Of a DNA stretch of 64,000 nt, positions 2,698-44,912 are shown piece by piece. The notes under the pieces are model-generated. The model did not search any database, was not told the DNA's origin, and saw only the letters and a list, made by a program, of their open reading frames with translations. Where the stretch lies: the IMG/VR virus record IMGVR_UViG_3300044644_001556; one strand, given 5' to 3'. The stretch comes from a virus. The position numbers and the translations under genes were made by a program. Numbering within the stretch: position 1 is the first letter of the stretch; each line of letters begins with the position of its first letter.

Positions 2698-5289
2698 ATG
2701 ACTACAAATATTGCAATTAGTAATTGCGCAGTGGATGCAACCACAGCACCCCCAGGTAAAACGGATGTATTGCCAAATACTTCGATTATCCGTGCGGGTG
2801 TAACTACAAATTCACCAACACTAACCCAAAATATTGATAATTTTGGTGATGCAACTACTGTTGTACCAACTGGTTCATTCTGTACTGTAAATGAATTAAT
2901 TTGGGCGGTTCGTATGGCGGTTGAAGGTCGGGCGTACGGTACTCCGCCGGTAGATGCGGGCGGTAAAGTAACCTTAGCAAATGGTGGATCTAGAGGTGAT
3001 TTTACTCACAGCTATAAACCAGCTAATGGCGGTGCGTTAGTTGACGTCGATTCGGATTCATTTGGTCCATTTAAAGCAGATATAACCAATCCAGCGGGCG
3101 GCCCAATCGCCGGTTATGTTGGTTGGACAGGTTGGACTTTATATGATACTTTTCCGTTAACTGGAGATAATGATCCAAGTGGTATCGTTACTCAAGTTTA
3201 TCGTGCATTAAATAAAGACGGTGTTTCATACAAATATTCAATTTTCCGTTGGAATTTATTATTGAGTGAAATCAATATTACTTCTTGTGAAGCTTGGGAT
3301 AAAGTTACTAGAACGTCGACTAACGAAACTCATACATTCTTTGATTCATCACCGATTCCTTATAAATTAAACGAAACAAAATTAGTATTGATGATTAACC
3401 CGCGTTGGTTAGTTTTACAATCAATTATCTATGATGAACCATCTGTTTGGGCGGGCGTATTTGAAACTGCACGCGAAGATATTACTGACGTTGCAACTTC
3501 AACAAACCCAGGTTTGCCTTGCTGGGGTTGGATTTCATCTACTTTATGGTCGTTAGGTGCTAAATCATATTTAGAAAAACCGATGGGTGGTGGTGCTGGT
3601 GCTACCGGTACAGCAACCGCAAGTGATTATACATTATTAAGTATGCCTCGTACTAAATCTGGTGCGACTGGATTTGGTGCAGCTAAAGGTTGGGGTGCGG
3701 ATTACGGGGTAGCTCAATATCCAAACTGGTTGACTAGTACAACTCCTGCATTCGTTACTTATTTAAGTAATGATAATGTTGGTAATAAATTCCAAGCGAA
3801 CTCATGGGATACAACCAAACGTTTAGTATTACCGATTAAACCAATTCATGATTATGCAGCTAACTTCGTCGCTAACTATGGTACAATCTTTGGTTTAAAA
3901 GTATTGGCTCCAATTGGACCGATGATGACTAAAATTAAAGTTAATACCGATGCGGATGGTAACTATACACCGGTAGTAACTTCAACTTCAACTAAAATTC
4001 ATTGGTTATTAAATACTCACCATAAAGCGTCTGGTGGCGCCGTTGCATCAGGTAGTGATTCTAATTCATGGTTCCAAAATACACAATTAGGTATTACTAA
4101 TATTAATACTAGCCCAAATAAACCATTTGCTTTAGTTAATGTTGGTTCTATTTGTTATGCTATTGCGGTTGCGGGCGGTCAGTTAAATAAATTCTTAAAA
4201 ATCAATTTGGTAACTCAGCAAGTTGATGTAATATTTGATTTATTAACTTCTAGTGCTAGTAAAATAACGATTCCTACATTATCACCGGCCGATATCACTG
4301 ATCTAGGTTTAGCGACTGGTAACGAAACTGCAGTTCCGACTTTATTTTTTGATATTAAATATGATGGCGATCAATACATTTATTTAACAACAGACGTTGG
4401 TCTTATTCGTTATAGAATTACTGATGGTAAATGGGTTAATAGAAATAAAGTAGGTCCTGGCTGTCAAGCTATTTCATTAACAGCATCTAAAATTTACGTA
4501 GCGCCAAAAACCGCAAGCCCAGCACCAAAAATTTATTCATTAAATAGAGCTGATTTTTCGTGGCAACCACAATCAACTGATATCTTATTAACTGATTTTA
4601 CTGATGATGTTATTATGACTGATGCATGTACTGGTACTGACGGTAGTGTTTATTTTACGCCTGTTATACCTGCGACTAGTAATGGTTATTCAACAAGATA
4701 TCGCTTAATTAAAATTGATCCGGCGGGTGTAGTATCGTATCATCCGTTTACTGTCGGGACTGGTAATTTAGCGACGCGTCAAGCAGCACTTCAAGTATTA
4801 GATAGCAATAACTTATTATTATGGCAGGCGACTGGTGATGGTGGGGCATGTACATTATATGCAGTTCGTATTAATACCACTAAAATGACGATGATGAAAT
4901 CAATTGATACTATTCAATCAACTGGTATTGCATTGGCTGGGGCTGGTATTATTAGTAGCAAACGCATACAACATGCTAAAATCCAAGGTGTTATTATTGC
5001 CGCACCATATTACGTAACAACTATCGGTTCATATGCGACATTACAATTGTGTTCACAATCAACCTCTAATACATTAGGTGTATTATCTGCGGTTGCTGGA
5101 TTAAACGGCGTAGTTAATATTACGGATACTATCTCCCCGGCCGGCAATAACTTATTCGTTTGGGATGGCGTTCGTTTCTACGGTAATACCGATAGTAGTT
5201 TACATATCTTTAGTAAATTAAATAATGAATCATGTTTCTCTGATGGTTCAAAAAATATTTTATTAGGTCAAGTTACTTTACCGGCTTAA
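2698..5289 (+). CDS. putative virion structural protein (tail/baseplate-associated, probable C-terminal beta-propeller)
   Basis: 863 aa, G/T/S/A-rich; ATAAATAT at 2642-2649; first gene of a + strand structural operon. Confidence 0.6.
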   Translation: MTTNIAISNCAVDATTAPPGKTDVLPNTSIIRAGVTTNSPTLTQNIDNFGDATTVVPTGSFCTVNELIWAVRMAVEGRAYGTPPVDAGGKVTLANGGSRGDFTHSYKPANGGALVDVDSDSFGPFKADITNPAGGPIAGYVGWTGWTLYDTFPLTGDNDPSGIVTQVYRALNKDGVSYKYSIFRWNLLLSEINITSCEAWDKVTRTSTNETHTFFDSSPIPYKLNETKLVLMINPRWLVLQSIIYDEPSVWAGVFETAREDITDVATSTNPGLPCWGWISSTLWSLGAKSYLEKPMGGGAGATGTATASDYTLLSMPRTKSGATGFGAAKGWGADYGVAQYPNWLTSTTPAFVTYLSNDNVGNKFQANSWDTTKRLVLPIKPIHDYAANFVANYGTIFGLKVLAPIGPMMTKIKVNTDADGNYTPVVTSTSTKIHWLLNTHHKASGGAVASGSDSNSWFQNTQLGITNINTSPNKPFALVNVGSICYAIAVAGGQLNKFLKINLVTQQVDVIFDLLTSSASKITIPTLSPADITDLGLATGNETAVPTLFFDIKYDGDQYIYLTTDVGLIRYRITDGKWVNRNKVGPGCQAISLTASKIYVAPKTASPAPKIYSLNRADFSWQPQSTDILLTDFTDDVIMTDACTGTDGSVYFTPVIPATSNGYSTRYRLIKIDPAGVVSYHPFTVGTGNLATRQAALQVLDSNNLLLWQATGDGGACTLYAVRINTTKMTMMKSIDTIQSTGIALAGAGIISSKRIQHAKIQGVIIAAPYYVTTIGSYATLQLCSQSTSNTLGVLSAVAGLNGVVNITDTISPAGNNLFVWDGVRFYGNTDSSLHIFSKLNNESCFSDGSKNILLGQVTLPA

Positions 5290-39468: not shown

Positions 39469-40227
39469 CTAAGCAGCTAAATCAGCTTTCAATAATCTAG
39501 CAATTGCTTTAACTTCAATATTTACAACACCTAATACACCTAATGCGGCCCATCCGAAGAATACGAAGCCGTAGTGTAAAGGAGCAACAAATAATTCTTC
39601 CATAAACCAGAAAGTGTGACCCCATTCATTCAAACCTACGTTTGGAAGAATCATGAAAGGTCCAATTACTGATACCATGTACTGTAATGGCAAACCTTGT
39701 TGATAGGTTGGCAATCTTGTTTTTGCATATAAGAAAGATGCAACACCAGTAATGATATAGATTGGGTAGCTCAAATAGAATTCAATAACATGACTTGGAG
39801 TGAAGTCAGTGTCACGAACGATAGTTTGATGCCATGTACCATCTTGTTCTGTAAAGTAAGAAGCACCGTAATAAATTGCGATACCGTACATTACCAACCA
39901 TACCCAGTGTGTAAAATGACGACGTAATTCTTCGCGTGGTGTGATCGACATTACTTTACGATCACGACTTTTCCAGATATATCCCCATAATACTGAAGCG
40001 GTTACGATTTCTAGAACCATTTCAATATAAAGGAAGTTCATCCAGTATGTTTCGAATTCTGGTGCAAATGAGTCTAAACCAGCTGACCAACCGTAAACTC
40101 CTTCATACCAACGAACCCAACCGTAGAATACAACATAAAGTGCAGCACCAGCGAACATATTTTTTTTGTTTAAAAGTGGTGCTTCTGTAACTGACGATAC
40201 AACGTCTGATTTAATTGTAGCTGACAT
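39469..40227 (-). CDS. pmoC: particulate methane monooxygenase subunit C (auxiliary metabolic gene)
   Basis: GWSAGLDSFAPEF, EQDGTWHQTIVRDTDFTPSH, PNVGLNEWGHTFWFMEELFVAPLH: hallmark PmoC motifs with metal ligands intact. Confidence 0.97.
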   Translation of the reverse strand: MSATIKSDVVSSVTEAPLLNKKNMFAGAALYVVFYGWVRWYEGVYGWSAGLDSFAPEFETYWMNFLYIEMVLEIVTASVLWGYIWKSRDRKVMSITPREELRRHFTHWVWLVMYGIAIYYGASYFTEQDGTWHQTIVRDTDFTPSHVIEFYLSYPIYIITGVASFLYAKTRLPTYQQGLPLQYMVSVIGPFMILPNVGLNEWGHTFWFMEELFVAPLHYGFVFFGWAALGVLGVVNIEVKAIARLLKADLAA

Positions 40228-40577: not shown

Positions 40578-41195
40578 TTAGCAATTCCATTTTTTTAAAG
40601 CTAATGCTTTACGAGTAGGTTTGCCGTGTTCATCCTTCATCGGACCTTTTACACCACCCATTCGTGCACAAAAGCTTTTACGTCTTTTGTAAGCTTTACT
40701 GCCTTTTTTTAATTTACTAGGTTTAGTGGTTACTGCAGTCTGTAATTTACTACCAGGATGTGCTCTGCGATAACTAGCAACACCTTTTGCATTTAACCCA
40801 CCATTTTTATTTTTGCCTTCTTTTCGAGTCCATGCTGCAGCTTCAAAAAGTTCTTGGTCACTAACCGATTCAAAATCAGCCCAAATTATTTCACTATCAA
40901 CACCATGGTGTATAGCTAAATTTTCAACCATATCTTCGATAAGGTCAAACATTTCATTGACTGTTGGATTAATACCGCGTTGTTCTTGACTCTGCAAATA
41001 ATCCCAAACCGATACTAACATATTTTCGGCATTAGCGATTTTTTCTTGAGCCCATTCTGGTAAATTTTCGTTGCGATCGATGGTTCGCATTAGACCTGAG
41101 GCTGCTCGAGAAATAGTTATTAAATGACCGTGAGCTGTACCAGCTTCGTCATTATACTCAGAATCGGAACCTTCAAATAATTCATTTAATTTCAT
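40578..41195 (-). CDS. late head-associated protein with C-terminal DUF6321-like domain
   Basis: MKLNELFE start; AAAWTRKEGKNKNGGLNAKG...RRKSFCARM...KWNC; ATAAATAT at 41223-41230. Confidence 0.7.
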   Translation of the reverse strand: MKLNELFEGSDSEYNDEAGTAHGHLITISRAASGLMRTIDRNENLPEWAQEKIANAENMLVSVWDYLQSQEQRGINPTVNEMFDLIEDMVENLAIHHGVDSEIIWADFESVSDQELFEAAAWTRKEGKNKNGGLNAKGVASYRRAHPGSKLQTAVTTKPSKLKKGSKAYKRRKSFCARMGGVKGPMKDEHGKPTRKALALKKWNC

Positions 41196-41249
41196 ACATA
41201 GTTACCTTTTGTTGTGTTTGAGATATTTATGTACGAAATTAAACATTTA

Positions 41250-41324
41250 TGGCTCCCTAGGATGGATTCGAACCACCGACCAGACGATTAACAGTCGTCG
41301 GCTCTGCCACTGAGCTACTAGGGA
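41250..41324 (-). tRNA. tRNA-Asn(GTT)
   Basis: Loop CTGTTAA, encoded CCA. Confidence 0.92.
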
Positions 41325-41341
41325 ATATATTTTATATAACT

Positions 41342-41453
41342 AGATTCTATTTATTTCAAATACTCTACCAACTGAGCTACGCGAGGCTTTAATTCACGGT
41401 CGGAATCGAACCGACGACACTTTGATTCGCTAAATTTTTTGCTGTTAGAATCT
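41342..41453 (-). ncRNA. circularly permuted tRNA mimic (YrlA/Y-RNA-like topology)
   Basis: T-arm precedes D-arm, acceptor stem closed by a loop, outer stem AGATTCTA/TAGAATCT. Confidence 0.7.
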
Positions 41454-41462
41454 TATTTAATT

Positions 41463-41491
41463 ATTATACTTGACTTATTCTAATATATCAA
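41463..41491 (-). promoter_or_regulatory. sigma70 promoter for the permuted tRNA mimic
   Basis: TTGATA-17-TATAAT, about 10 nt before the outer stem. Confidence 0.75.
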
Positions 41492-41568
41492 GCATTAATT
41501 ATCTCATTTGAATTAATCTACCTATAAACCTAATTCTACCTCAATTAAAGGTTGATATTGATTATAAT

Positions 41569-41658
41569 TGGTGGAAGAGAAGAGATTCGAACTCTTGGAC
41601 CCCTCTCGGAGCCGGCGGTTTTCAAGACCGCTGCCTTAAGCCACTCGGCCACTCTTCC
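41569..41658 (-). tRNA. tRNA-Ser(TGA)
   Basis: Loop CTTGAAA, long variable arm, CCA. Confidence 0.92.
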
Positions 41659-41671
41659 ATTTGTTATGTCA

Positions 41672-41857
41672 TTACAGAAAAGCTAAACTAATACTGGCGA
41701 TACCTTCAATTAAAATCTCAGTAAAATCAGATGAGTTATTCGATGTTTTTTGTTGTTTGGTATTTTTAATATGCGTATCGATATAAGATTTAACTTCATC
41801 TCGTGGCATATCACCCACATCAATATAAAATATTTTTCTTTCAATCACATCATTCAT
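41672..41857 (-). CDS. small hypothetical protein (start MNDVIER)
   Basis: AGGAG RBS; ERKIFYIDVGDMP resembles a segment of T4-like portal proteins; the upstream part of the ORF-track call overlaps tRNAs. Confidence 0.5.
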   Translation of the reverse strand: MNDVIERKIFYIDVGDMPRDEVKSYIDTHIKNTKQQKTSNNSSDFTEILIEGIASISLAFL

Positions 41858-41877
41858 ATTAATACTCCTAATATATT

Positions 41878-41951
41878 TGGCAGTCTCTACAGGGCTCGAA
41901 CCTATACTAACACAGTCAAAGTGTGTTGTGCTACCATTACACAAAGAGACA
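41878..41951 (-). tRNA. tRNA-Gln(TTG)
   Basis: Loop CTTTGAC, CCA. Confidence 0.88.
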
Positions 41952-41958
41952 ATAATCT

Positions 41959-42043
41959 TGGTGCGAATAGACAGAATCGAACTGTCACGCCCGAAGGCAA
42001 TAGATTTTAAGTCTACAGCGTCTACCAGTTCCGCCATACTCGC
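41959..42043 (-). tRNA. tRNA-Leu(TAA)
   Basis: Loop CTTAAAA, variable arm, CCA. Confidence 0.92.
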
Positions 42044-42051
42044 TTTATAAT

Positions 42052-42137
42052 TGGTGGGTAAGGTAGGATTCGAACCTACTCAGCCAAAGGCGACAGATTT
42101 ACAGTCTGCTGCGACTCTCCCACTTCGCCGCTTACCC
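42052..42137 (-). tRNA. tRNA-Tyr(GTA)
   Basis: Loop CTGTAAA, variable arm, CCA. Confidence 0.9.
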
Positions 42138-42143
42138 GATATT

Positions 42144-42220
42144 TGGTCTCCCATGAAGGATTTGAACCTCCGACCTGTCCGCCCCAAACGGACCGCCCTA
42201 CCAGACTGAGCTAATGGGAG
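42144..42220 (-). tRNA. tRNA-Pro(TGG)
   Basis: Loop TTTGGGG, C1-G72, CCA. Confidence 0.92.
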
Positions 42221-42236
42221 AAAATTAATCTTTTAT

Positions 42237-42626
42237 TTATAACAACTTAAGGTGCTTGGTTAAAAAATCGATATTATCTGGATAATCAGGCCCTATCGCT
42301 AAACAAGTTAGTGTAGGAATTCCATTAAATTCAGTTAATCCAGCATCGGTTATTAACTTAACATTAACATTTGCGGCTAATGTATTATCATAAATTTCTA
42401 ATAATTCTGCTTCGCTATCTACCGAAACACATATTTTTGTAAATAAGCCATTAATCCATTGTTCAAGTGCGTAATTCTCAGTAAGATTAATTTCTATGCG
42501 ATCATCATTATAAGATCTATAATTTAAAACTGCTCCCATTGACGCATGAGCTACTTGGGCTGCAATTTTACCTTTGCGCATATTAAGATCTTTACGAACT
42601 ACGATTACTTGTTTTGGTAATGTCAT
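42237..42626 (-). CDS. pth2: peptidyl-tRNA hydrolase, Pth2 family
   Basis: KQVIVVRKDLNMRKGKIAAQVAHA, KICV, DAGLTEF, TCLAIGP. Confidence 0.93.
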   Translation of the reverse strand: MTLPKQVIVVRKDLNMRKGKIAAQVAHASMGAVLNYRSYNDDRIEINLTENYALEQWINGLFTKICVSVDSEAELLEIYDNTLAANVNVKLITDAGLTEFNGIPTLTCLAIGPDYPDNIDFLTKHLKLL

Positions 42627-42641
42627 ATTTATTCCGTTAAT

Positions 42642-42728
42642 TGGCGGAAGGTATAGGATTCGAACCTATACAACGATTTCTCGTTGACGGATTAGCAATC
42701 CGCTCTATTACCATTCTAGCAACCTTCC
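42642..42728 (-). tRNA. tRNA-Ser(GCT)
   Basis: Loop TTGCTAA, long variable arm, CCA. Confidence 0.9.
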
Positions 42729-42742
42729 GTTTATTTCTAACA

Positions 42743-42935
42743 AGATACATTTTAATTTCGCCAATGAAAGTTTTTGAAATTGCTGTTAGTATCTTTAAAT
42801 TATCTAGATATCATCTTTCAATTATAAAATTGATATCTATAACTCGGAGTGAGTTTTATTTTTTTTAAAAATCCATTTTAACTAGATACATTTTAATTTC
42901 GCCAATGAAAGTTTTTGAAATTGCTGTTAGTATCT
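42743..42935 (-). repeat. two identical 52-nt hairpin units (AGATACTAACAGCAA...GTATCT)
   Basis: 42743-42794 equals 42884-42935. Confidence 0.9.
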
Positions 42936-42986
42936 AAATTTGATACTAAGAAAGTAAATAATTCACTTTCTTAATAAATTAAAGAT

Positions 42987-43015
42987 ATTATATATTAAGA
43001 TATCTTTAATGTCAA
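42987..43015 (-). promoter_or_regulatory. consensus sigma70 promoter driving the ACAGCAA hairpins and tRNA cluster
   Basis: TTGACA-17-TATAAT. Confidence 0.85.
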
Positions 43016-43356
43016 TCTTTTTTTTAATACTTAGGTTAATCTTTAAAAATATTAATTATAATTTTAGCAATATCTAACAGTCCGAGTATTGAAAATCGCA
43101 ATAATATTATGGGCCATCCGAAAACGCTAGCAACTCGCATCAGTTAAATGTTTTAATATATAGTCTTCATCGTGGAAATAGATCTGTAACATATCTTGAT
43201 CCGATTCGATAGTCCAATCAGCTAAATCAACATCTTGGTTTGATATATCTATATTTTCGACTGTTATTTTATTATTCATCTAATTTCTGCATTAACGAAA
43301 TATTTGGTGATTAAGGTATTCCTATTGTTAGGTTCTAATAAAACAGCTAGAATTTT

Positions 43357-44028
43357 ACTATCATACATCTCCACTAGTGGGACTTGAACCCACGCCCGAT
43401 ATTGTCCGGTAGCCGGCATGTTCATGCATCCGAACATCGTAAGGTCTACTCCTCCCATGGCTCTAACCAACTGAGCTATAGTGGAGATGTATGATAGTGC
43501 TTGTCTTTCCAAGCCGTCATGAAGGTCTCCGTTACTATCAATAATTGCCACCGCAAGGAATCGAACCTAGATTTACCGGTTTGTTAGCAAGTTGCCTTAC
43601 ACCATTTAGACGACAATAGCAATTATTGATAGTGCTTGTCTTTCCAAGCGGTCACCACACATTAAATATTAATAAAACGCTGATGGGATTCGCACCCATA
43701 TTTCAAACCGCGCTGGGTAAGTGTACTTCAAGTCTTATACGACAGCGTTTTATTTCTAATCTGAAAGTTGTCTTAAGTAGACGGTTCAGCTCCCCTACAG
43801 CCGTTGGTTACCGAGTCGGTGGTCGGTTGATAATTATAATATAACTATCAATAAAATGCACGTTACTTCTTCCGAAATATAATATCTTAAGCTACTATAC
43901 TCGGCTTTACTGAGCTTTCCCCACTTGCGTGCTTTATACTCGAATCTGTACGCGCGTAACATATCGAATAAGGCCTCTACTATCTTTCGATGCATTTTAT
44001 TGATGGTGCTTGTCTTTCCAAACTGTCA
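43357..44028 (-). ncRNA. three-unit structured RNA array with tRNA-like cargo
   Basis: TGACnG(C/T)TTGGAAAGACAAGC three times, each followed by a 15-20 bp clamp stem. Confidence 0.75.
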
Positions 44029-44390
44029 TATAGTAGCGAACTATAATATTGCTTTGTACCTATACGATATAACCGGCATGTATAGGCTTTTCCCAGTGAG
44101 GTTATCCGCAATTACTTCAGATGCCTTATCTCTATTGCGTGTACTGACAGATTATATAGGGGCGACCTATACCGCACACTTTTCACTAGCAACAGCGGGT
44201 AAATTCTATTAACTCTTAGTCTAATCCATTAAATGGCCCATCTTTTCCATAGGCCCATAATGCATTTTTTTCATGAATAGTTCGAGCTAATTTACGGGGT
44301 AAAAATGGCAAAATAGGATGAACTATTACATTATGAATAATGCTCTTAATTAAACTCATATAAACTCCATATAATTAAGTTAATATAAGT

Positions 44391-44530
44391 AATAGTGCCG
44401 GTACTGATCTCCAGCTTCGGTAAATTCACGCAGACTATTTAATTGTTTACCATTTAATGATGCCTACCAAAACTATTTGGGTCTATCATCCTCTGCGTTA
44501 TTAAGCGTATCAGTCTACGCACTAACTATT
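44391..44530 (-). ncRNA. structured RNA with kissing loops (CUGAU/AUCAG)
   Basis: Hairpins GCGTA-gactga-TACGC and GCTGG-agatcagta-CCGGC; own TTGATT-17-TATAAT promoter at 44538-44566. Confidence 0.55.
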
Positions 44531-44582
44531 TAAATATATTATACTATTATGTTGCGATAAAATCAAACCTTTTGTTCGAATT

Positions 44583-44912
44583 TTACCACCAATATCCACG
44601 CTTAGGTTTTTTTAAGATTTGAATTTCATAATCCGCATCTCTTATATATCGGTGTATTTGTTGCTTTACATCTCTACGGTAAGGTCGTTGAGCATATAAA
44701 TTATGAAACCACCCAGGACCTCTATAAAGCCAAGCACCCCATTTTTTATCGGAACTAAATCTAGCTACTCTTTTTTTATATTCATCACTAGATTTGTCTA
44801 ATTTTACCCGAACCTCATTATATTTAAATTCAGATATTGGAACCCAAATATATGTTATATTATTATATTTTAACATAAATTGAGCTTTTTTAAATCTATA
44901 AGTACGACTCAT
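44583..44912 (-). CDS. basic hypothetical protein
   Basis: MSRTYR...PGWF...YWW, a pattern typical of small phage proteins. Confidence 0.6.
   Translation of the reverse strand: MSRTYRFKKAQFMLKYNNITYIWVPISEFKYNEVRVKLDKSSDEYKKRVARFSSDKKWGAWLYRGPGWFHNLYAQRPYRRDVKQQIHRYIRDADYEIQILKKPKRGYWW

What the first reader, a model, noticed from the sequence alone, without database searches (positions are those of the whole stretch)
42743..42935. Duplicated 52-nt ACAGCAA hairpin RNAs sharing the outer motif of the permuted tRNA mimic
Seen: two identical 52-mers (minus strand AGATAC-TAACAGC-AATTTC-aaaaactttcattggc-GAAATT-aaaat-GTATCT) downstream of a perfect TTGACA-17-TATAAT promoter (42987-43015). The AGAT(A/T)C-TAACAGCAA start and the complementary end match the RNA at 41342-41453 with a compensatory change (AGATAC/GTATCT vs AGATTC/GAATCT). 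The apical loop contains CTTTCAT, close to a tRNA-Glu anticodon loop (CUUUCAC). Inference: one RNA family with a constant protein-binding stem and exchangeable tRNA-derived heads (elbow in one member, possible anticodon loop in the other two).
Basis: partly seen in the sequence, partly recalled or inferred. Interest (0 to 1): 0.7.

Follow-up and report, generated by a model that had tools for sequence, protein, structure and literature searches.

The report
Phage Y-like small RNAs, ACAGCAA handle
Two identical ~54-base hairpins in this phage's tRNA cluster belong to a large, uncatalogued family of viral small RNAs that share one "handle", carry copies of tRNA parts, and occur in phages that encode a Ro60-shaped RNA-binding protein, so they are probably that protein's missing partner RNAs.

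Summary
Two identical 52-mers (54 nt with a seventh covarying pair) lie on the minus strand at 42743-42794 and 42884-42935, behind a 12/12 sigma-70 promoter. They share their handle with the YrlA-like RNA at 41342-41453.

They are not chance hairpins. A covariance model built only from 34 elements of other phages finds them at 59.9 and 56.4 bits (E about 1e-10) and the YrlA-like RNA at 29.7 bits.

The family is common in tRNA clusters of large phages, with up to 11 copies per genome. Its stem covaries; a flanking pair that I never selected on pairs in 71 of 89 elements, against 37 in shuffles. Its heads are tRNA parts: anticodon-arm-like hairpins (17 of 54 against 2.4 in shuffles, Lys-UUU commonest), permuted tRNA bodies and whole tRNAs.

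Nine of ten motif-bearing phage records encode a DUF2828 protein, which I show has the Ro60 fold. The handle has the design of the Class I RNAs of Dictyostelium.

Not shown: expression, binding, and a Ro60-like gene in this phage itself. None lies in the window or in the 37 kb upstream. The anticodon-loop reading of these two copies is weak.

This scan had already noted the family in at least 41 other genomes. I found no paper that describes it.

The parts
42987..43015 (-). Sigma-70-type promoter TTGACA-17-TATAAT that heads the array
   Evidence: 12 of 12 consensus positions, the best match in 41000-44700; sequence read.
42944..42976 (-). Leader hairpin between the promoter and copy A
   Evidence: Inverted repeat I9. 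Folding of 42936-42985 gives -13.7 kcal/mol, z -4.6, and 0 of 200 shuffles fold as well.
42883..42936 (-). Handle RNA copy A: a 7-bp terminal helix (U-A, then AGAUAC/GUAUCU), unpaired UAACAGCAA, an inner 6-bp helix, a 16-nt loop holding CUUUCAU, AAAAU, and the tail AGUU
   Evidence: Model R1, built without any window sequence, scores 56.4 bits, E 8.8e-10; fold.
42802..42841 (-). Handle-like hairpin between the two copies. It has the same AGAUAU.../...AUAUCU-AG frame but lacks ACAGCAA; possibly a decayed copy
   Evidence: R1 scores 15.6 bits, E 0.76. It is a strong hairpin in the fold of 42795-42883, z -3.0.
42742..42795 (-). Handle RNA copy B: core identical to copy A, seventh pair A-U, tail UGUU. 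It ends 14 nt before tRNA-Ser(GCU)
   Evidence: R1 scores 59.9 bits, E 1.5e-10; tRNA at 42642-42728.
42642..42728 (-). tRNA-Ser(GCU), directly downstream and probably co-transcribed. Its RNase P cut would set the 3' side of copy B's precursor
   Evidence: ARAGORN; Rfam tRNA 58 bits. The RNase P step is inference.
41338..41456 (-). Third family member in the window: the same handle (AGAUUC/GAAUCU, UAACAGCAA) around a permuted tRNA-like body with T arm, closed 5-bp acceptor and D arm, as in YrlA
   Evidence: R1 scores 29.7 bits, E 6e-4. Rfam YrlA RF02553 scores 32.7 bits, below its gathering score of 69, and only the tRNA-like module aligns.
41463..41491 (-). Own promoter of the YrlA-like member, TTGATA-17-TATAAT. 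The expected start site lies 2-3 nt before the handle
   Evidence: 11 of 12 consensus positions; sequence.

Best explanation
The two elements are genes for small non-coding RNAs of a widespread viral family. Each RNA has a constant handle: a 6-7 bp helix that joins its 5' and 3' ends, an unpaired (U)AACAGCAA just after the 5' strand, an A-rich AAAAU before the 3' strand, and a short NG(U) tail. The handle most likely serves as the docking site for a phage Ro60-fold protein of the DUF2828/DUF7788 family, much as the terminal stem of a Y RNA docks on Ro60/Rsr. The variable head copies a part of a tRNA. In this phage one member carries the T/D elbow, and the two 52-mers carry a loop holding a tRNA-Glu-like CUUUCAU heptamer.

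Here the RNAs would be transcribed from the sigma-70 promoter at 43015 together with tRNA-Ser and then cut out by tRNA-processing and trimming nucleases. The resulting RNP would present tRNA look-alikes to enzymes that act on tRNA. It could act as a decoy for, or recruiter of, tRNA-cleaving defence nucleases or repair and decay enzymes.

Shown: family membership, stem covariation, tRNA-like heads across the family, co-occurrence with DUF2828, and the Ro60 fold of DUF2828. Inferred: transcription and processing, binding, and the biological role.
For: - **Membership.** Model R1, built from 34 elements of other phages, finds the two copies at 59.9 and 56.4 bits (E 1.5e-10, 8.8e-10) and the YrlA-like RNA at 29.7 bits. 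Nothing else in the 64 kb scores below E 0.5.
- **Structure.** Five of the six stem pairs show changes on both sides. Perfect closure of the stem is found at 100 of 235 sites carrying the 5' motif, against 46.5 +/- 5.7 for shuffled stems. The pair just outside the stem, never used in selection, pairs in 71 of 89 elements against 37.3 +/- 3.8 in shuffles, as AU, UA, GC and CG. The two window copies differ by exactly such a swap. The tail G occurs in 70 of 87 elements against 19% in controls.
- **Context.** The elements lie in tRNA clusters on the tRNA strand, with up to 11 copies in 7 kb.
- **Heads.** Of 54 short members, 17 have a 7-nt Y-U-NNN-R-N loop closed by 4 or more base pairs, against 2.4 +/- 1.5 in shuffles. 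Other members carry permuted or whole tRNA bodies.
- **Partner.** PF11443 (DUF2828) is present in 9 of 10 motif-bearing IMG/VR records, and the one miss is only 29% complete. It is absent from 14 control genomes and from five records related by their portal gene; the three of those scanned for the RNA, two of them near-complete genomes, also lack it. The gene lies within 1 kb of an element in three records.
- **Cultured phages.** In Mycobacterium phage Wilder two R1 hits (E 3e-6, 4e-5) flank the tRNA right after the gene annotated 'Ro-like RNA binding protein'. In Felix O1-like phage UAB_Phi87 a handle with a permuted tRNA body lies 1 kb downstream of the homologue.
- **Fold of the partner.** The DUF2828 model (pLDDT 82) has Ro60 or Rsr structures, including that of a Thermus phage, as its 12 best PDB matches, aligned over the full length with TM 0.48-0.57. 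HHalign against TROVE proteins gives 92.5% probability, E 4.8e-7.
- **Literature.** The PhageMaP preprint reports that Bas63 gp130, which is Ro60-like and lies upstream of tRNA genes, counters the ppl defence; its authors guess that some of the 'tRNAs' are Y RNAs (PMC11482910). The Ro60 of Thermus phage phiLo binds two phage-encoded Y-like RNAs (PMC12135203).
Against: - No DUF2828 or TROVE gene lies in the window or in the 37 kb upstream that I recovered.
- The 52-mer alone folds weakly: -5.3 kcal/mol, z -1.07.
- The handle lacks the GNCGAA(N)G or GGUCCGA motif that Ro60/Rsr is known to contact (PMC4201824).
- Plasmid-borne gp130 alone rescued T7 on a ppl host, so the protein can act without its own phage's RNAs.
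- R1 found nothing within 17 kb around the Aeromonas phage Aeh1 homologue.
- The co-occurrence sample is small: 10 motif-bearing records and 5 related by portal gene, of which 3 were scanned for the RNA.
Confidence: 0.55

Rival explanations
1. Stand-alone tRNA-part decoys. The RNAs act without a dedicated protein partner as competitive mimics of anticodon arms or tRNA elbows. Possible targets are host anticodon nucleases (PrrC-, PARIS-, RloC- or colicin-like) or tRNA-modifying enzymes. The handle then serves only as a clamp that protects the ends and marks the RNA for excision from the tRNA precursor.
For: Anticodon-like loops are strongly enriched, and Lys-UUU, the classic target of anticodon nucleases, is the commonest, in 8 of the 20 loops with U33 and a purine at 37. 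The elements sit between tRNA genes and usually begin 4-13 nt after a tRNA 3' end. This phage also carries an RNA ligase and a PTH2 peptidyl-tRNA hydrolase. No Ro60-like gene was found in the window or the 37 kb upstream.
Against: A mere clamp would not need nine near-invariant unpaired bases, a conserved AAU and a conserved tail G across very different phages. The co-occurrence with DUF2828 would be left unexplained. The window's own 52-mers are poor anticodon-arm mimics.
Confidence: 0.17
2. A processing signal for fragmented tRNA genes. The handle would be the bacterial-virus counterpart of the archaeal bulge-helix-bulge motif. It would be cut and the ends religated to remove an insert from the anticodon loop, or to join permuted or split tRNA pieces, perhaps swapping anticodon arms into tRNA bodies.
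For: In locus L071 three tandem tRNA genes (Rfam tRNA 42.8-51.2 bits) carry the handle as a capped hairpin exactly where the anticodon loop should be. L177:10498 is a permuted tRNA-Tyr with an intact GUA anticodon arm, a long variable arm and a 7-bp acceptor stem. Open-ended and capped forms of one motif are what circular permutation predicts. The phage encodes an Rnl-type RNA ligase.
Against: No single cut-and-join rule restores a 7-nt anticodon loop in all three L071 genes (my reading). The permutation points differ between elements: between the D and anticodon arms, between the T stem and the acceptor, or outside the acceptor. The window's tRNA-like member has only a 5-bp closed acceptor and no CCA. 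The short members have no tRNA body at all. No endonuclease candidate is known.
Confidence: 0.1
3. A DNA-level or trivial feature: a recent local duplication of an AT-rich palindrome that serves as an operator, terminator or recombination site, or does nothing.
For: The two copies are identical over 52 nt, which points to a recent duplication. The fold energy is unremarkable. GATATC-like words recur nearby.
Against: The elements lie on the same strand as the tRNA genes in every locus where both were mapped. Compensatory changes keep the pairing while the sequence drifts. There is no T-run terminator. A model from unrelated phages recognises the copies at E about 1e-10.
Confidence: 0.04

Closest known systems
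Class I RNAs of dictyostelid social amoebae (Rfam RF01414; Kjellin et al. 2021, PMC7919456)
   Same: Both are about 50-60 nt. In both a 6-bp helix joins the 5' and 3' ends and covaries, and a conserved G preceded by A opens the helix. An unpaired conserved motif ending in ACAGCAA follows the 5' strand, with the near-invariant U3, C6, C9, A10 and A11 all present here. The 3' end is C-U-G-U-like and the interior is variable. The Rfam consensus GaUcuC-CUUACAGCAAU...GagAuC-UG even resembles the phage GAUAC-UAACAGCAAU...GUAUC-U-UG.
   Different: The distance from the conserved G to ACAGCAA is 2 nt shorter, and there is one extra base before the UG tail. The promoter is a bacterial sigma-70 type, not DUSE. 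The phage heads mimic tRNA parts. The only reported direct-binding partner in Dictyostelium is the RRM protein Rnp1A, not a Ro60-like protein. RF01414 gives no hit on the window copies at E up to 10 and 15.4 bits, against a gathering score of 41.5, on a sister element. Class I RNAs were reported as unique to Dictyostelia.
Bacterial and phage Y RNAs (YrlA, YrlB, Yrn1; Rfam RF02553) bound by Ro60/Rsr (Chen et al. 2014, PMC4201824; Thermus phage phiLo Ro60 with Yrl1/Yrl2, PMC12135203)
   Same: Both are modular small RNAs whose ends pair into a protein-docking stem and whose other module mimics tRNA. Several different RNAs occur per genome, including short ones without the tRNA body, as with YrlB. 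They are encoded with a Ro60-fold protein and often beside tRNA or RNA-repair genes. The window's third member matches the tRNA-like module of YrlA at 32.7 bits.
   Different: The docking motif differs: ACAGCAA rather than GNCGAA(N)G or CGAA. The protein partner is DUF2828/DUF7788, not a Pfam TROVE protein; TROVE is absent from the records tested. The heads include bare anticodon arms and whole tRNAs. There can be up to about 11 copies scattered through a tRNA cluster rather than 1-2 beside rsr. The score is below the Rfam threshold.
Bas63 gp130, a Ro60-like counter-defence protein of a Felix O1-like coliphage (PhageMaP preprint, PMC11482910)
   Same: It is a Ro60-fold protein encoded directly upstream of a phage tRNA cluster, and its authors suspected unrecognised Y RNAs among the tRNAs. 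I found a handle with a permuted tRNA body 1 kb downstream of the homologous gene in the Felix O1-like phage UAB_Phi87. That element is conserved and unannotated in 234 Felix O1-type records.
   Different: No RNA was identified in that work, and gp130 alone sufficed in trans against ppl. I did not examine Bas63 itself. The present phage is a T4-like, pmoC-carrying environmental phage.

Membership tests
   59.9 and 56.4 bits, E 1.5e-10 and 8.8e-10 over 64 kb on both strands. No window sequence was used to build the model.
   AGAUAC/GUAUCU plus a flanking U-A or A-U pair, then UAACAGCAA, AAAAU, and tails AG and UG.
   Both copies are on the minus strand, between the promoter at 43015 and tRNA-Ser at 42728. 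Thirteen tRNA genes were called in the window.
None in the window or the 37 kb upstream. Exact-word scans of metagenome and genome contigs found nothing.
Dictyostelium Class I RNA (RF01414) | Score at or above the Rfam gathering threshold of 41.5 bits | tested here: not met
   No RF01414 hit at E up to 10 on 42730-43030. A sister element in L071 reaches 15.4 bits.
Dictyostelium Class I RNA (RF01414) | A 6-bp terminal stem with a conserved 5' G, then an 11-nt motif with U3, C6, C9, A10 and A11, and a 3' CUGU | tested here: inconclusive
   The stem, the G and all five near-invariant motif bases are present if the motif is taken to start two bases inside the stem. The spacing is 2 nt shorter and the 3' end reads C-U-(U/A)-G-U.
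Dictyostelium Class I RNA (RF01414) | A DUSE promoter element upstream; restricted to Dictyostelia | tested here: not met
   A bacterial TTGACA-17-TATAAT promoter is found instead, in a phage genome with T4-type portal, gp32 and UvsX/UvsW genes.
YrlA / bacterial Y RNA (RF02553) | tRNA-like T and D arm module; score at or above 69 bits | tested here: not met
   The 52-mers have no T or D arm and give no RF02553 hit. The neighbour at 41342-41453 has the module but reaches only 32.7 bits.
YrlA / bacterial Y RNA (RF02553) | GNCGAA(N0-1)G motif near the 5' end (the proposed Rsr contact) | tested here: not met
   ACAGCAA follows the 5' strand instead. GGCGAA does occur, but on the 3' side of the loop and without the trailing G. 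CGAA is not enriched in the family: 6 elements against 4.3 +/- 2.0 in shuffles.
YrlA / bacterial Y RNA (RF02553) | Encoded within about 4 kb of a Ro60 (TROVE) gene on the same strand | tested here: not met
   No TROVE or DUF2828 match among the window ORFs that were scanned, and none by tblastn with DUF2828 proteins.
Anticodon stem-loop mimic | A 7-nt loop Y32-U33-NNN-R37-N38 closed by a 4-5 bp stem | tested here: not met
   CUUUCAU fits the loop pattern but sits inside a 16-nt loop, and its flanks AAAAA and UGGC cannot pair. The window element is not among the 20 positives. Across the family the feature is enriched: 17 of 54 against 2.4 in shuffles.

The most novel reading that the evidence does not exclude
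The ACAGCAA handle marks one ancient RNP class shared by phages, giant viruses and social amoebae. In this reading the DUF2828 proteins are a second, very large branch of Ro60, and these RNAs are their Y RNAs. The long-orphan Class I RNAs of Dictyostelium belong to the same class, whether by descent or by viral transfer. Phages would use interchangeable heads (anticodon arms of chosen tRNAs, elbows, whole tRNA bodies) as a programmable set of tRNA look-alikes to defeat tRNA-targeting immunity or to steer RNA decay and repair.
Probability: 0.25. Interest if true: 0.88.

Novelty: new variant of a known kind. Interest (0 to 1): 0.72.

Why it matters
Ro60-fold DUF2828 proteins are encoded by at least 711 sequenced cultured phages, including Felix O1-like, mycobacterial, Listeria, Staphylococcus, Campylobacter and Vibrio phages. 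One of them, Bas63 gp130, is a proven counter-defence factor, yet its RNA partners are unknown.

This family offers concrete, testable candidates for those partners. They lie unannotated in hundreds of GenBank phage records. They also widen the Y RNA idea from 'tRNA elbow mimic' to a set of tRNA-part mimics.

For annotation, several 'odd tRNAs' and small 'hypothetical proteins' in phage tRNA clusters are probably these RNAs.

Tried and rejected
- **Rfam.** No known family covers the 52-mers at E up to 10.
- **Antisense target.** The apical loop has no complementary site elsewhere in the window.
- **Pseudoknot.** The tail UGUUAG of copy B is complementary to CUAACA, which suggested a pseudoknot. 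The two helices would have no linkers, so this is sterically implausible, and the complementarity is not kept across the family (my reading).
- **Retron-like and ToxI-like readings.** I considered an AGC branch point or AAAU cleavage sites. I dropped both: the elements are many, dissimilar and interspersed with tRNA genes rather than in tandem, and the evidence pointed to Ro60.
- **Archaeal host.** I first suspected one because of the AmoC hit. The protein is full-length and bacterial-type (252 aa), and the promoters are sigma-70 type.
- **CGAA (Rsr-type) motif as a family feature.** It is not enriched.
- **Finding this phage's own Ro60-like gene.** Ten exact-protein look-ups walked 37 kb upstream. 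Word scans of metagenome and genome contigs found nothing. Relatives found through the portal gene share no synteny and have no DUF2828.
- **Sequence-only PDB search with the DUF2828 profile.** It saw only a vWA domain; the fold search was needed.
- **Scan of prokaryotic genomes.** It gave 121 pattern matches, about as many with complementary stems as chance predicts (22 against roughly 17). Only about six look real, and those sit on phage-like contigs within MAGs.

Full report
**The window.** The window is a 31% GC stretch of a T4-like phage. Its T4-type genes include a gp32, a UvsX-like RecA, UvsW and a portal with an intein; those four lie just upstream of the window. The window also carries auxiliary genes: a full-length bacterial-type PmoC/AmoC (401.8 bits), NAMPT, an NMNAT-Nudix protein, an Rnl-type RNA ligase and a PTH2 peptidyl-tRNA hydrolase. 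A cluster of 13 tRNA genes lies on the minus strand. Exact-protein look-ups place the window on a 132-kb metagenomic contig, NCBI GCA_043534795.1 JBFDLI010001121.1.

**The observation.**
- A 60-nt direct repeat, 97% identical, at 42735-42794 and 42876-42935 contains two identical 52-mers. On the minus strand each reads AGAUAC-UAACAGCAA, then a 6-bp inner helix around a 16-nt loop, then AAAAU-GUAUCU.
- The TTGACA-17-TATAAT promoter at 43015-42987 is a 12/12 match. The next best match in the region, 11/12 at 41491-41463, sits directly before the tRNA-like RNA at 41342-41453.
- That RNA opens AGAUUC-UAACAGCAA and closes GAAUCU.
- The 15-nt word AGAUNCUAACAGCAA occurs three times in the 64 kb, all here; 0.48 are expected by chance.
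- Taken alone the 52-mer is an unimpressive fold (-5.3 kcal/mol, z -1.07), and no Rfam family covers it. The case therefore rests on comparison with other genomes.

**The family.** A scan of IMG/VR for the 15-nt word returned mostly coding-sequence chance hits. About fifteen of 120 loci, however, had a complementary closing hexamer 44-68 nt downstream, and all of those I checked with ARAGORN lay in phage tRNA clusters. Further pattern scans and searches of whole records showed many more.
- One 243-kb phage has at least 11 copies in 7 kb. They usually begin 4-13 nt after one tRNA and end a few bases before the next.
- The stems vary widely: AGAUNN, AGACRC, GGAUNN, GGCUGC and GGUUAC.
- The core NN-AC(A/U/C)GCAA is kept throughout.

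I aligned 34 short members from other phages (A2) and built covariance model R1 from them. R1 finds the two window copies at 59.9 and 56.4 bits (E 1.5e-10 and 8.8e-10), the tRNA-like RNA at 29.7 bits (E 6e-4), and nothing else convincing in the window.

**Is it an RNA structure?**
- Five of the six stem pairs show double changes. I had selected elements for stem closure, so I ran unbiased tests.
- Sites defined by the 5' motif alone close perfectly in 100 of 235 cases, against 46.5 +/- 5.7 for shuffled stems.
- RNAalifold proposed a seventh pair between the base before the stem and the base after it. I never selected on these two positions. They pair in 71 of 89 elements (AU 37, UA 20, GC 11, CG 2, GU 1), against 37.3 +/- 3.8 in 2000 shuffles with a maximum of 50.
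- The two otherwise identical window copies differ by exactly this swap: U...A in copy A and A...U in copy B.
- Other unselected features are conserved too. A G is the second base after the stem in 70 of 87 elements, against 19% in chance 'elements', and AAU precedes the 3' strand.
- In every locus where I mapped both, the elements lie on the same strand as the tRNA genes. This speaks for an RNA and against a DNA site.

**The heads.** The variable interior is tRNA-derived far more often than chance allows.
- Of 54 short members, 17 have a hairpin of at least 4 bp closing a 7-nt loop of the anticodon-loop form Y-U-NNN-R-N, against 2.4 +/- 1.5 (maximum 8) in 300 shuffles. UUU (lysine) is the commonest triplet; GAU, GUU, GAA, UCA, UGA and GCU are among the others. 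CAU (L043) shows.
- Longer members enclose permuted tRNA bodies of the YrlA type (T arm, closed acceptor, D arm). One is a permuted tRNA-Tyr with an intact GUA arm. Others are bodies permuted at a different point, or a normal-order tRNA.
- In one phage three tandem tRNA genes carry the handle as a capped hairpin in place of the anticodon loop.
- For the two window copies it is weaker. CUUUCAU has the loop pattern and resembles the loop of tRNA-Glu, a tRNA that ARAGORN does not call in the window. But it lies in a 16-nt loop with no closing stem.

**The likely partner.** Notes from earlier runs of this scan pointed to a DUF2828 protein and to the Class I RNAs of Dictyostelium. I tested both leads.
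- PF11443 is present in 9 of 10 motif-bearing IMG/VR records, and the exception is only 29% complete. It is absent from 14 control genomes and from five records related by their portal gene. Three of those five were also scanned with R1 and lack the RNA, among them two near-complete genomes.
- Pfam TROVE is absent from the records tested.
- In three records an element lies within 1 kb of the gene.
- An AlphaFold model of one member (25-sequence alignment, pLDDT 82, pTM 0.77) has as its 12 best PDB matches only Ro60 structures: Xenopus and human Ro60, Deinococcus Rsr and the Thermus phage phiLo Ro60. They align over the full length at TM 0.48-0.57 and E 1e-7 to 5e-5. After them come bare vWA domains at TM about 0.23.
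- HHalign against eleven Bacteroidota TROVE proteins gives 92.5% probability, E 4.8e-7. Language-model features point the same way.
- tblastn finds homologues in 711 cultured-phage records. Mycobacteriophage annotators already call them 'Ro-like RNA binding protein'.
- In Mycobacterium phage Wilder two R1 hits flank the tRNA directly after that gene.
- In Felix O1-like UAB_Phi87 the gene heads the tRNA cluster. A handle around a permuted tRNA body lies 1 kb downstream, conserved but unannotated in 234 records.

**What is known.**
- Bacterial Y RNAs dock on Ro60/Rsr through a terminal stem with a GNCGAA(N)G motif and carry a tRNA-like module (PMC4201824).
- A Thermus phage Ro60 binds two phage-encoded Y-like RNAs with a CGAA motif and assembles with the host PNPase (PMC12135203).
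- The PhageMaP preprint shows that Bas63 gp130, which is Ro60-like and lies upstream of tRNA genes, counters the ppl defence. Its authors speculate that some 'tRNAs' are Y RNAs (PMC11482910).
- None of these papers describes the ACAGCAA handle, and my text searches found no paper that does.
- The Class I RNAs of Dictyostelia have the same design: a covarying 6-bp terminal stem opened by a conserved G, an unpaired motif ending in ACAGCAA, a CUGU end and a length of about 60 nt. The Rfam consensus is strikingly alike.
- The spacing differs by 2 nt, however, and the window copies do not reach the RF01414 threshold.

**Reading.** The most likely account (about 0.55) is that the two 54-mers and the YrlA-like RNA are Y-RNA-like partners of a phage Ro60-fold protein, with the handle as docking site and the head as a tRNA look-alike. 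That the elements are members of a real structured-RNA family I hold at about 0.9. That the handle binds DUF2828 I hold at about 0.5. A role in countering tRNA-directed defence, or in steering RNA repair and decay, I hold at about 0.25.

The main weakness is local. I found no Ro60-like gene in the window or in the 37 kb upstream. There are also no expression data, and gp130 can act without its phage's RNAs.

The rivals are stand-alone tRNA-part decoys (0.17), an intron-like or permutation processing signal (0.10), and a DNA-level or trivial repeat (0.04).

**Verdict.** This is a further instance, with three members in the window, of a family that this scan has already noted in at least 41 other genomes and that appears undescribed in the literature. 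I class it as a new variant of the Ro60/Y RNA kind.

Noticed in passing
window 43357-44028 (minus strand): A second kind of odd tRNA-like unit lies upstream of the finding. Rfam calls a tRNA of 117 nt with an insert at 43369-43485, and ARAGORN calls a 'tRNA' with a 4-base anticodon at 43545-43621. A 28-nt word is repeated at 43492-43519 and 43627-43654. Perfect inverted repeats of 20 and 15 nt bracket the units. None carries the ACAGCAA handle.
   Followed up: no
window 41400-41430 and 42760-42775 (minus strand): Both RNA types in the window contain GCGAA: AGCGAAUC in the spacer of the YrlA-like RNA, and GGCGAAAU in the loop and inner stem of the 52-mers. This resembles the GNCGAA motif proposed to contact Rsr. 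CGAA is not enriched in the family as a whole, so this may be chance, or a second docking site for a host Rsr.
   Followed up: partly
L071:2745-3131 (IMGVR_UViG_3300045988_134815), also L068 and L098:~560-740: Three tandem tRNA genes with full 7-bp acceptor stems carry the handle as a capped hairpin (for example AAAAU-GUAUCU, an 8-nt loop, then AGAUAC-UAACAGCAA) where the anticodon loop should be. ARAGORN misses them; Rfam scores them 42.8-51.2 bits with inserts of 49-71 nt.
   Followed up: partly
L177:10498-10624 (G002, 243-kb phage): A permuted tRNA-Tyr sits inside the handle: an intact GUA anticodon arm, a long variable arm, a T arm, a 7-bp acceptor closed by a 6-nt loop, and a D arm. After the D arm comes a second copy of the 5' strand of the anticodon stem, as if the gene had been cut out of a tandem duplication.
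   Followed up: no
L363:10386-10509 (Enterobacteria phage UAB_Phi87, NC_027360.1 about 3145-3268): A handle RNA with a permuted tRNA body lies in a Felix O1-like coliphage. It overlaps an annotated 'hypothetical protein' (Phi87_08) that is probably spurious. It is at least 97% identical in most of 234 phage records and is not annotated as an RNA in any of the 25 records listed.
   Followed up: partly
window 39469-40227 (minus strand): A stand-alone full-length PmoC/AmoC gene (Pfam AmoC 401.8 bits) lies inside the tRNA cluster. No pmoA or pmoB appeared among the large window ORFs that I scanned against Pfam.
   Followed up: no
window 41672-42037 (minus strand): A small ORF between tRNA genes gives a weak match to an internal segment of the T4 portal protein (Pfam Portal_T4, 22.7 bits against a cut-off of 22.9, residues 65-101).
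   Followed up: no
L241:12068-15217 (same phage, about 34-37 kb before the window start): The portal gene of this phage is 1049 aa and carries a weak intein-splicing match between two Portal_T4 segments. UvsW shows a weak Hint match, and a neighbouring 304-aa gene a weak intein-splicing match.
   Followed up: no
L364:5498-5568 (Mycobacterium phage Wilder tRNA-Asn): The 5' end of this tRNA reads GGACUCC-UA-CAGCAA. A real acceptor stem followed by U8, A9 and the D stem thus fits the handle pattern by sequence. This hints that the handle may itself derive from, or imitate, the acceptor/D junction of a tRNA.
   Followed up: no
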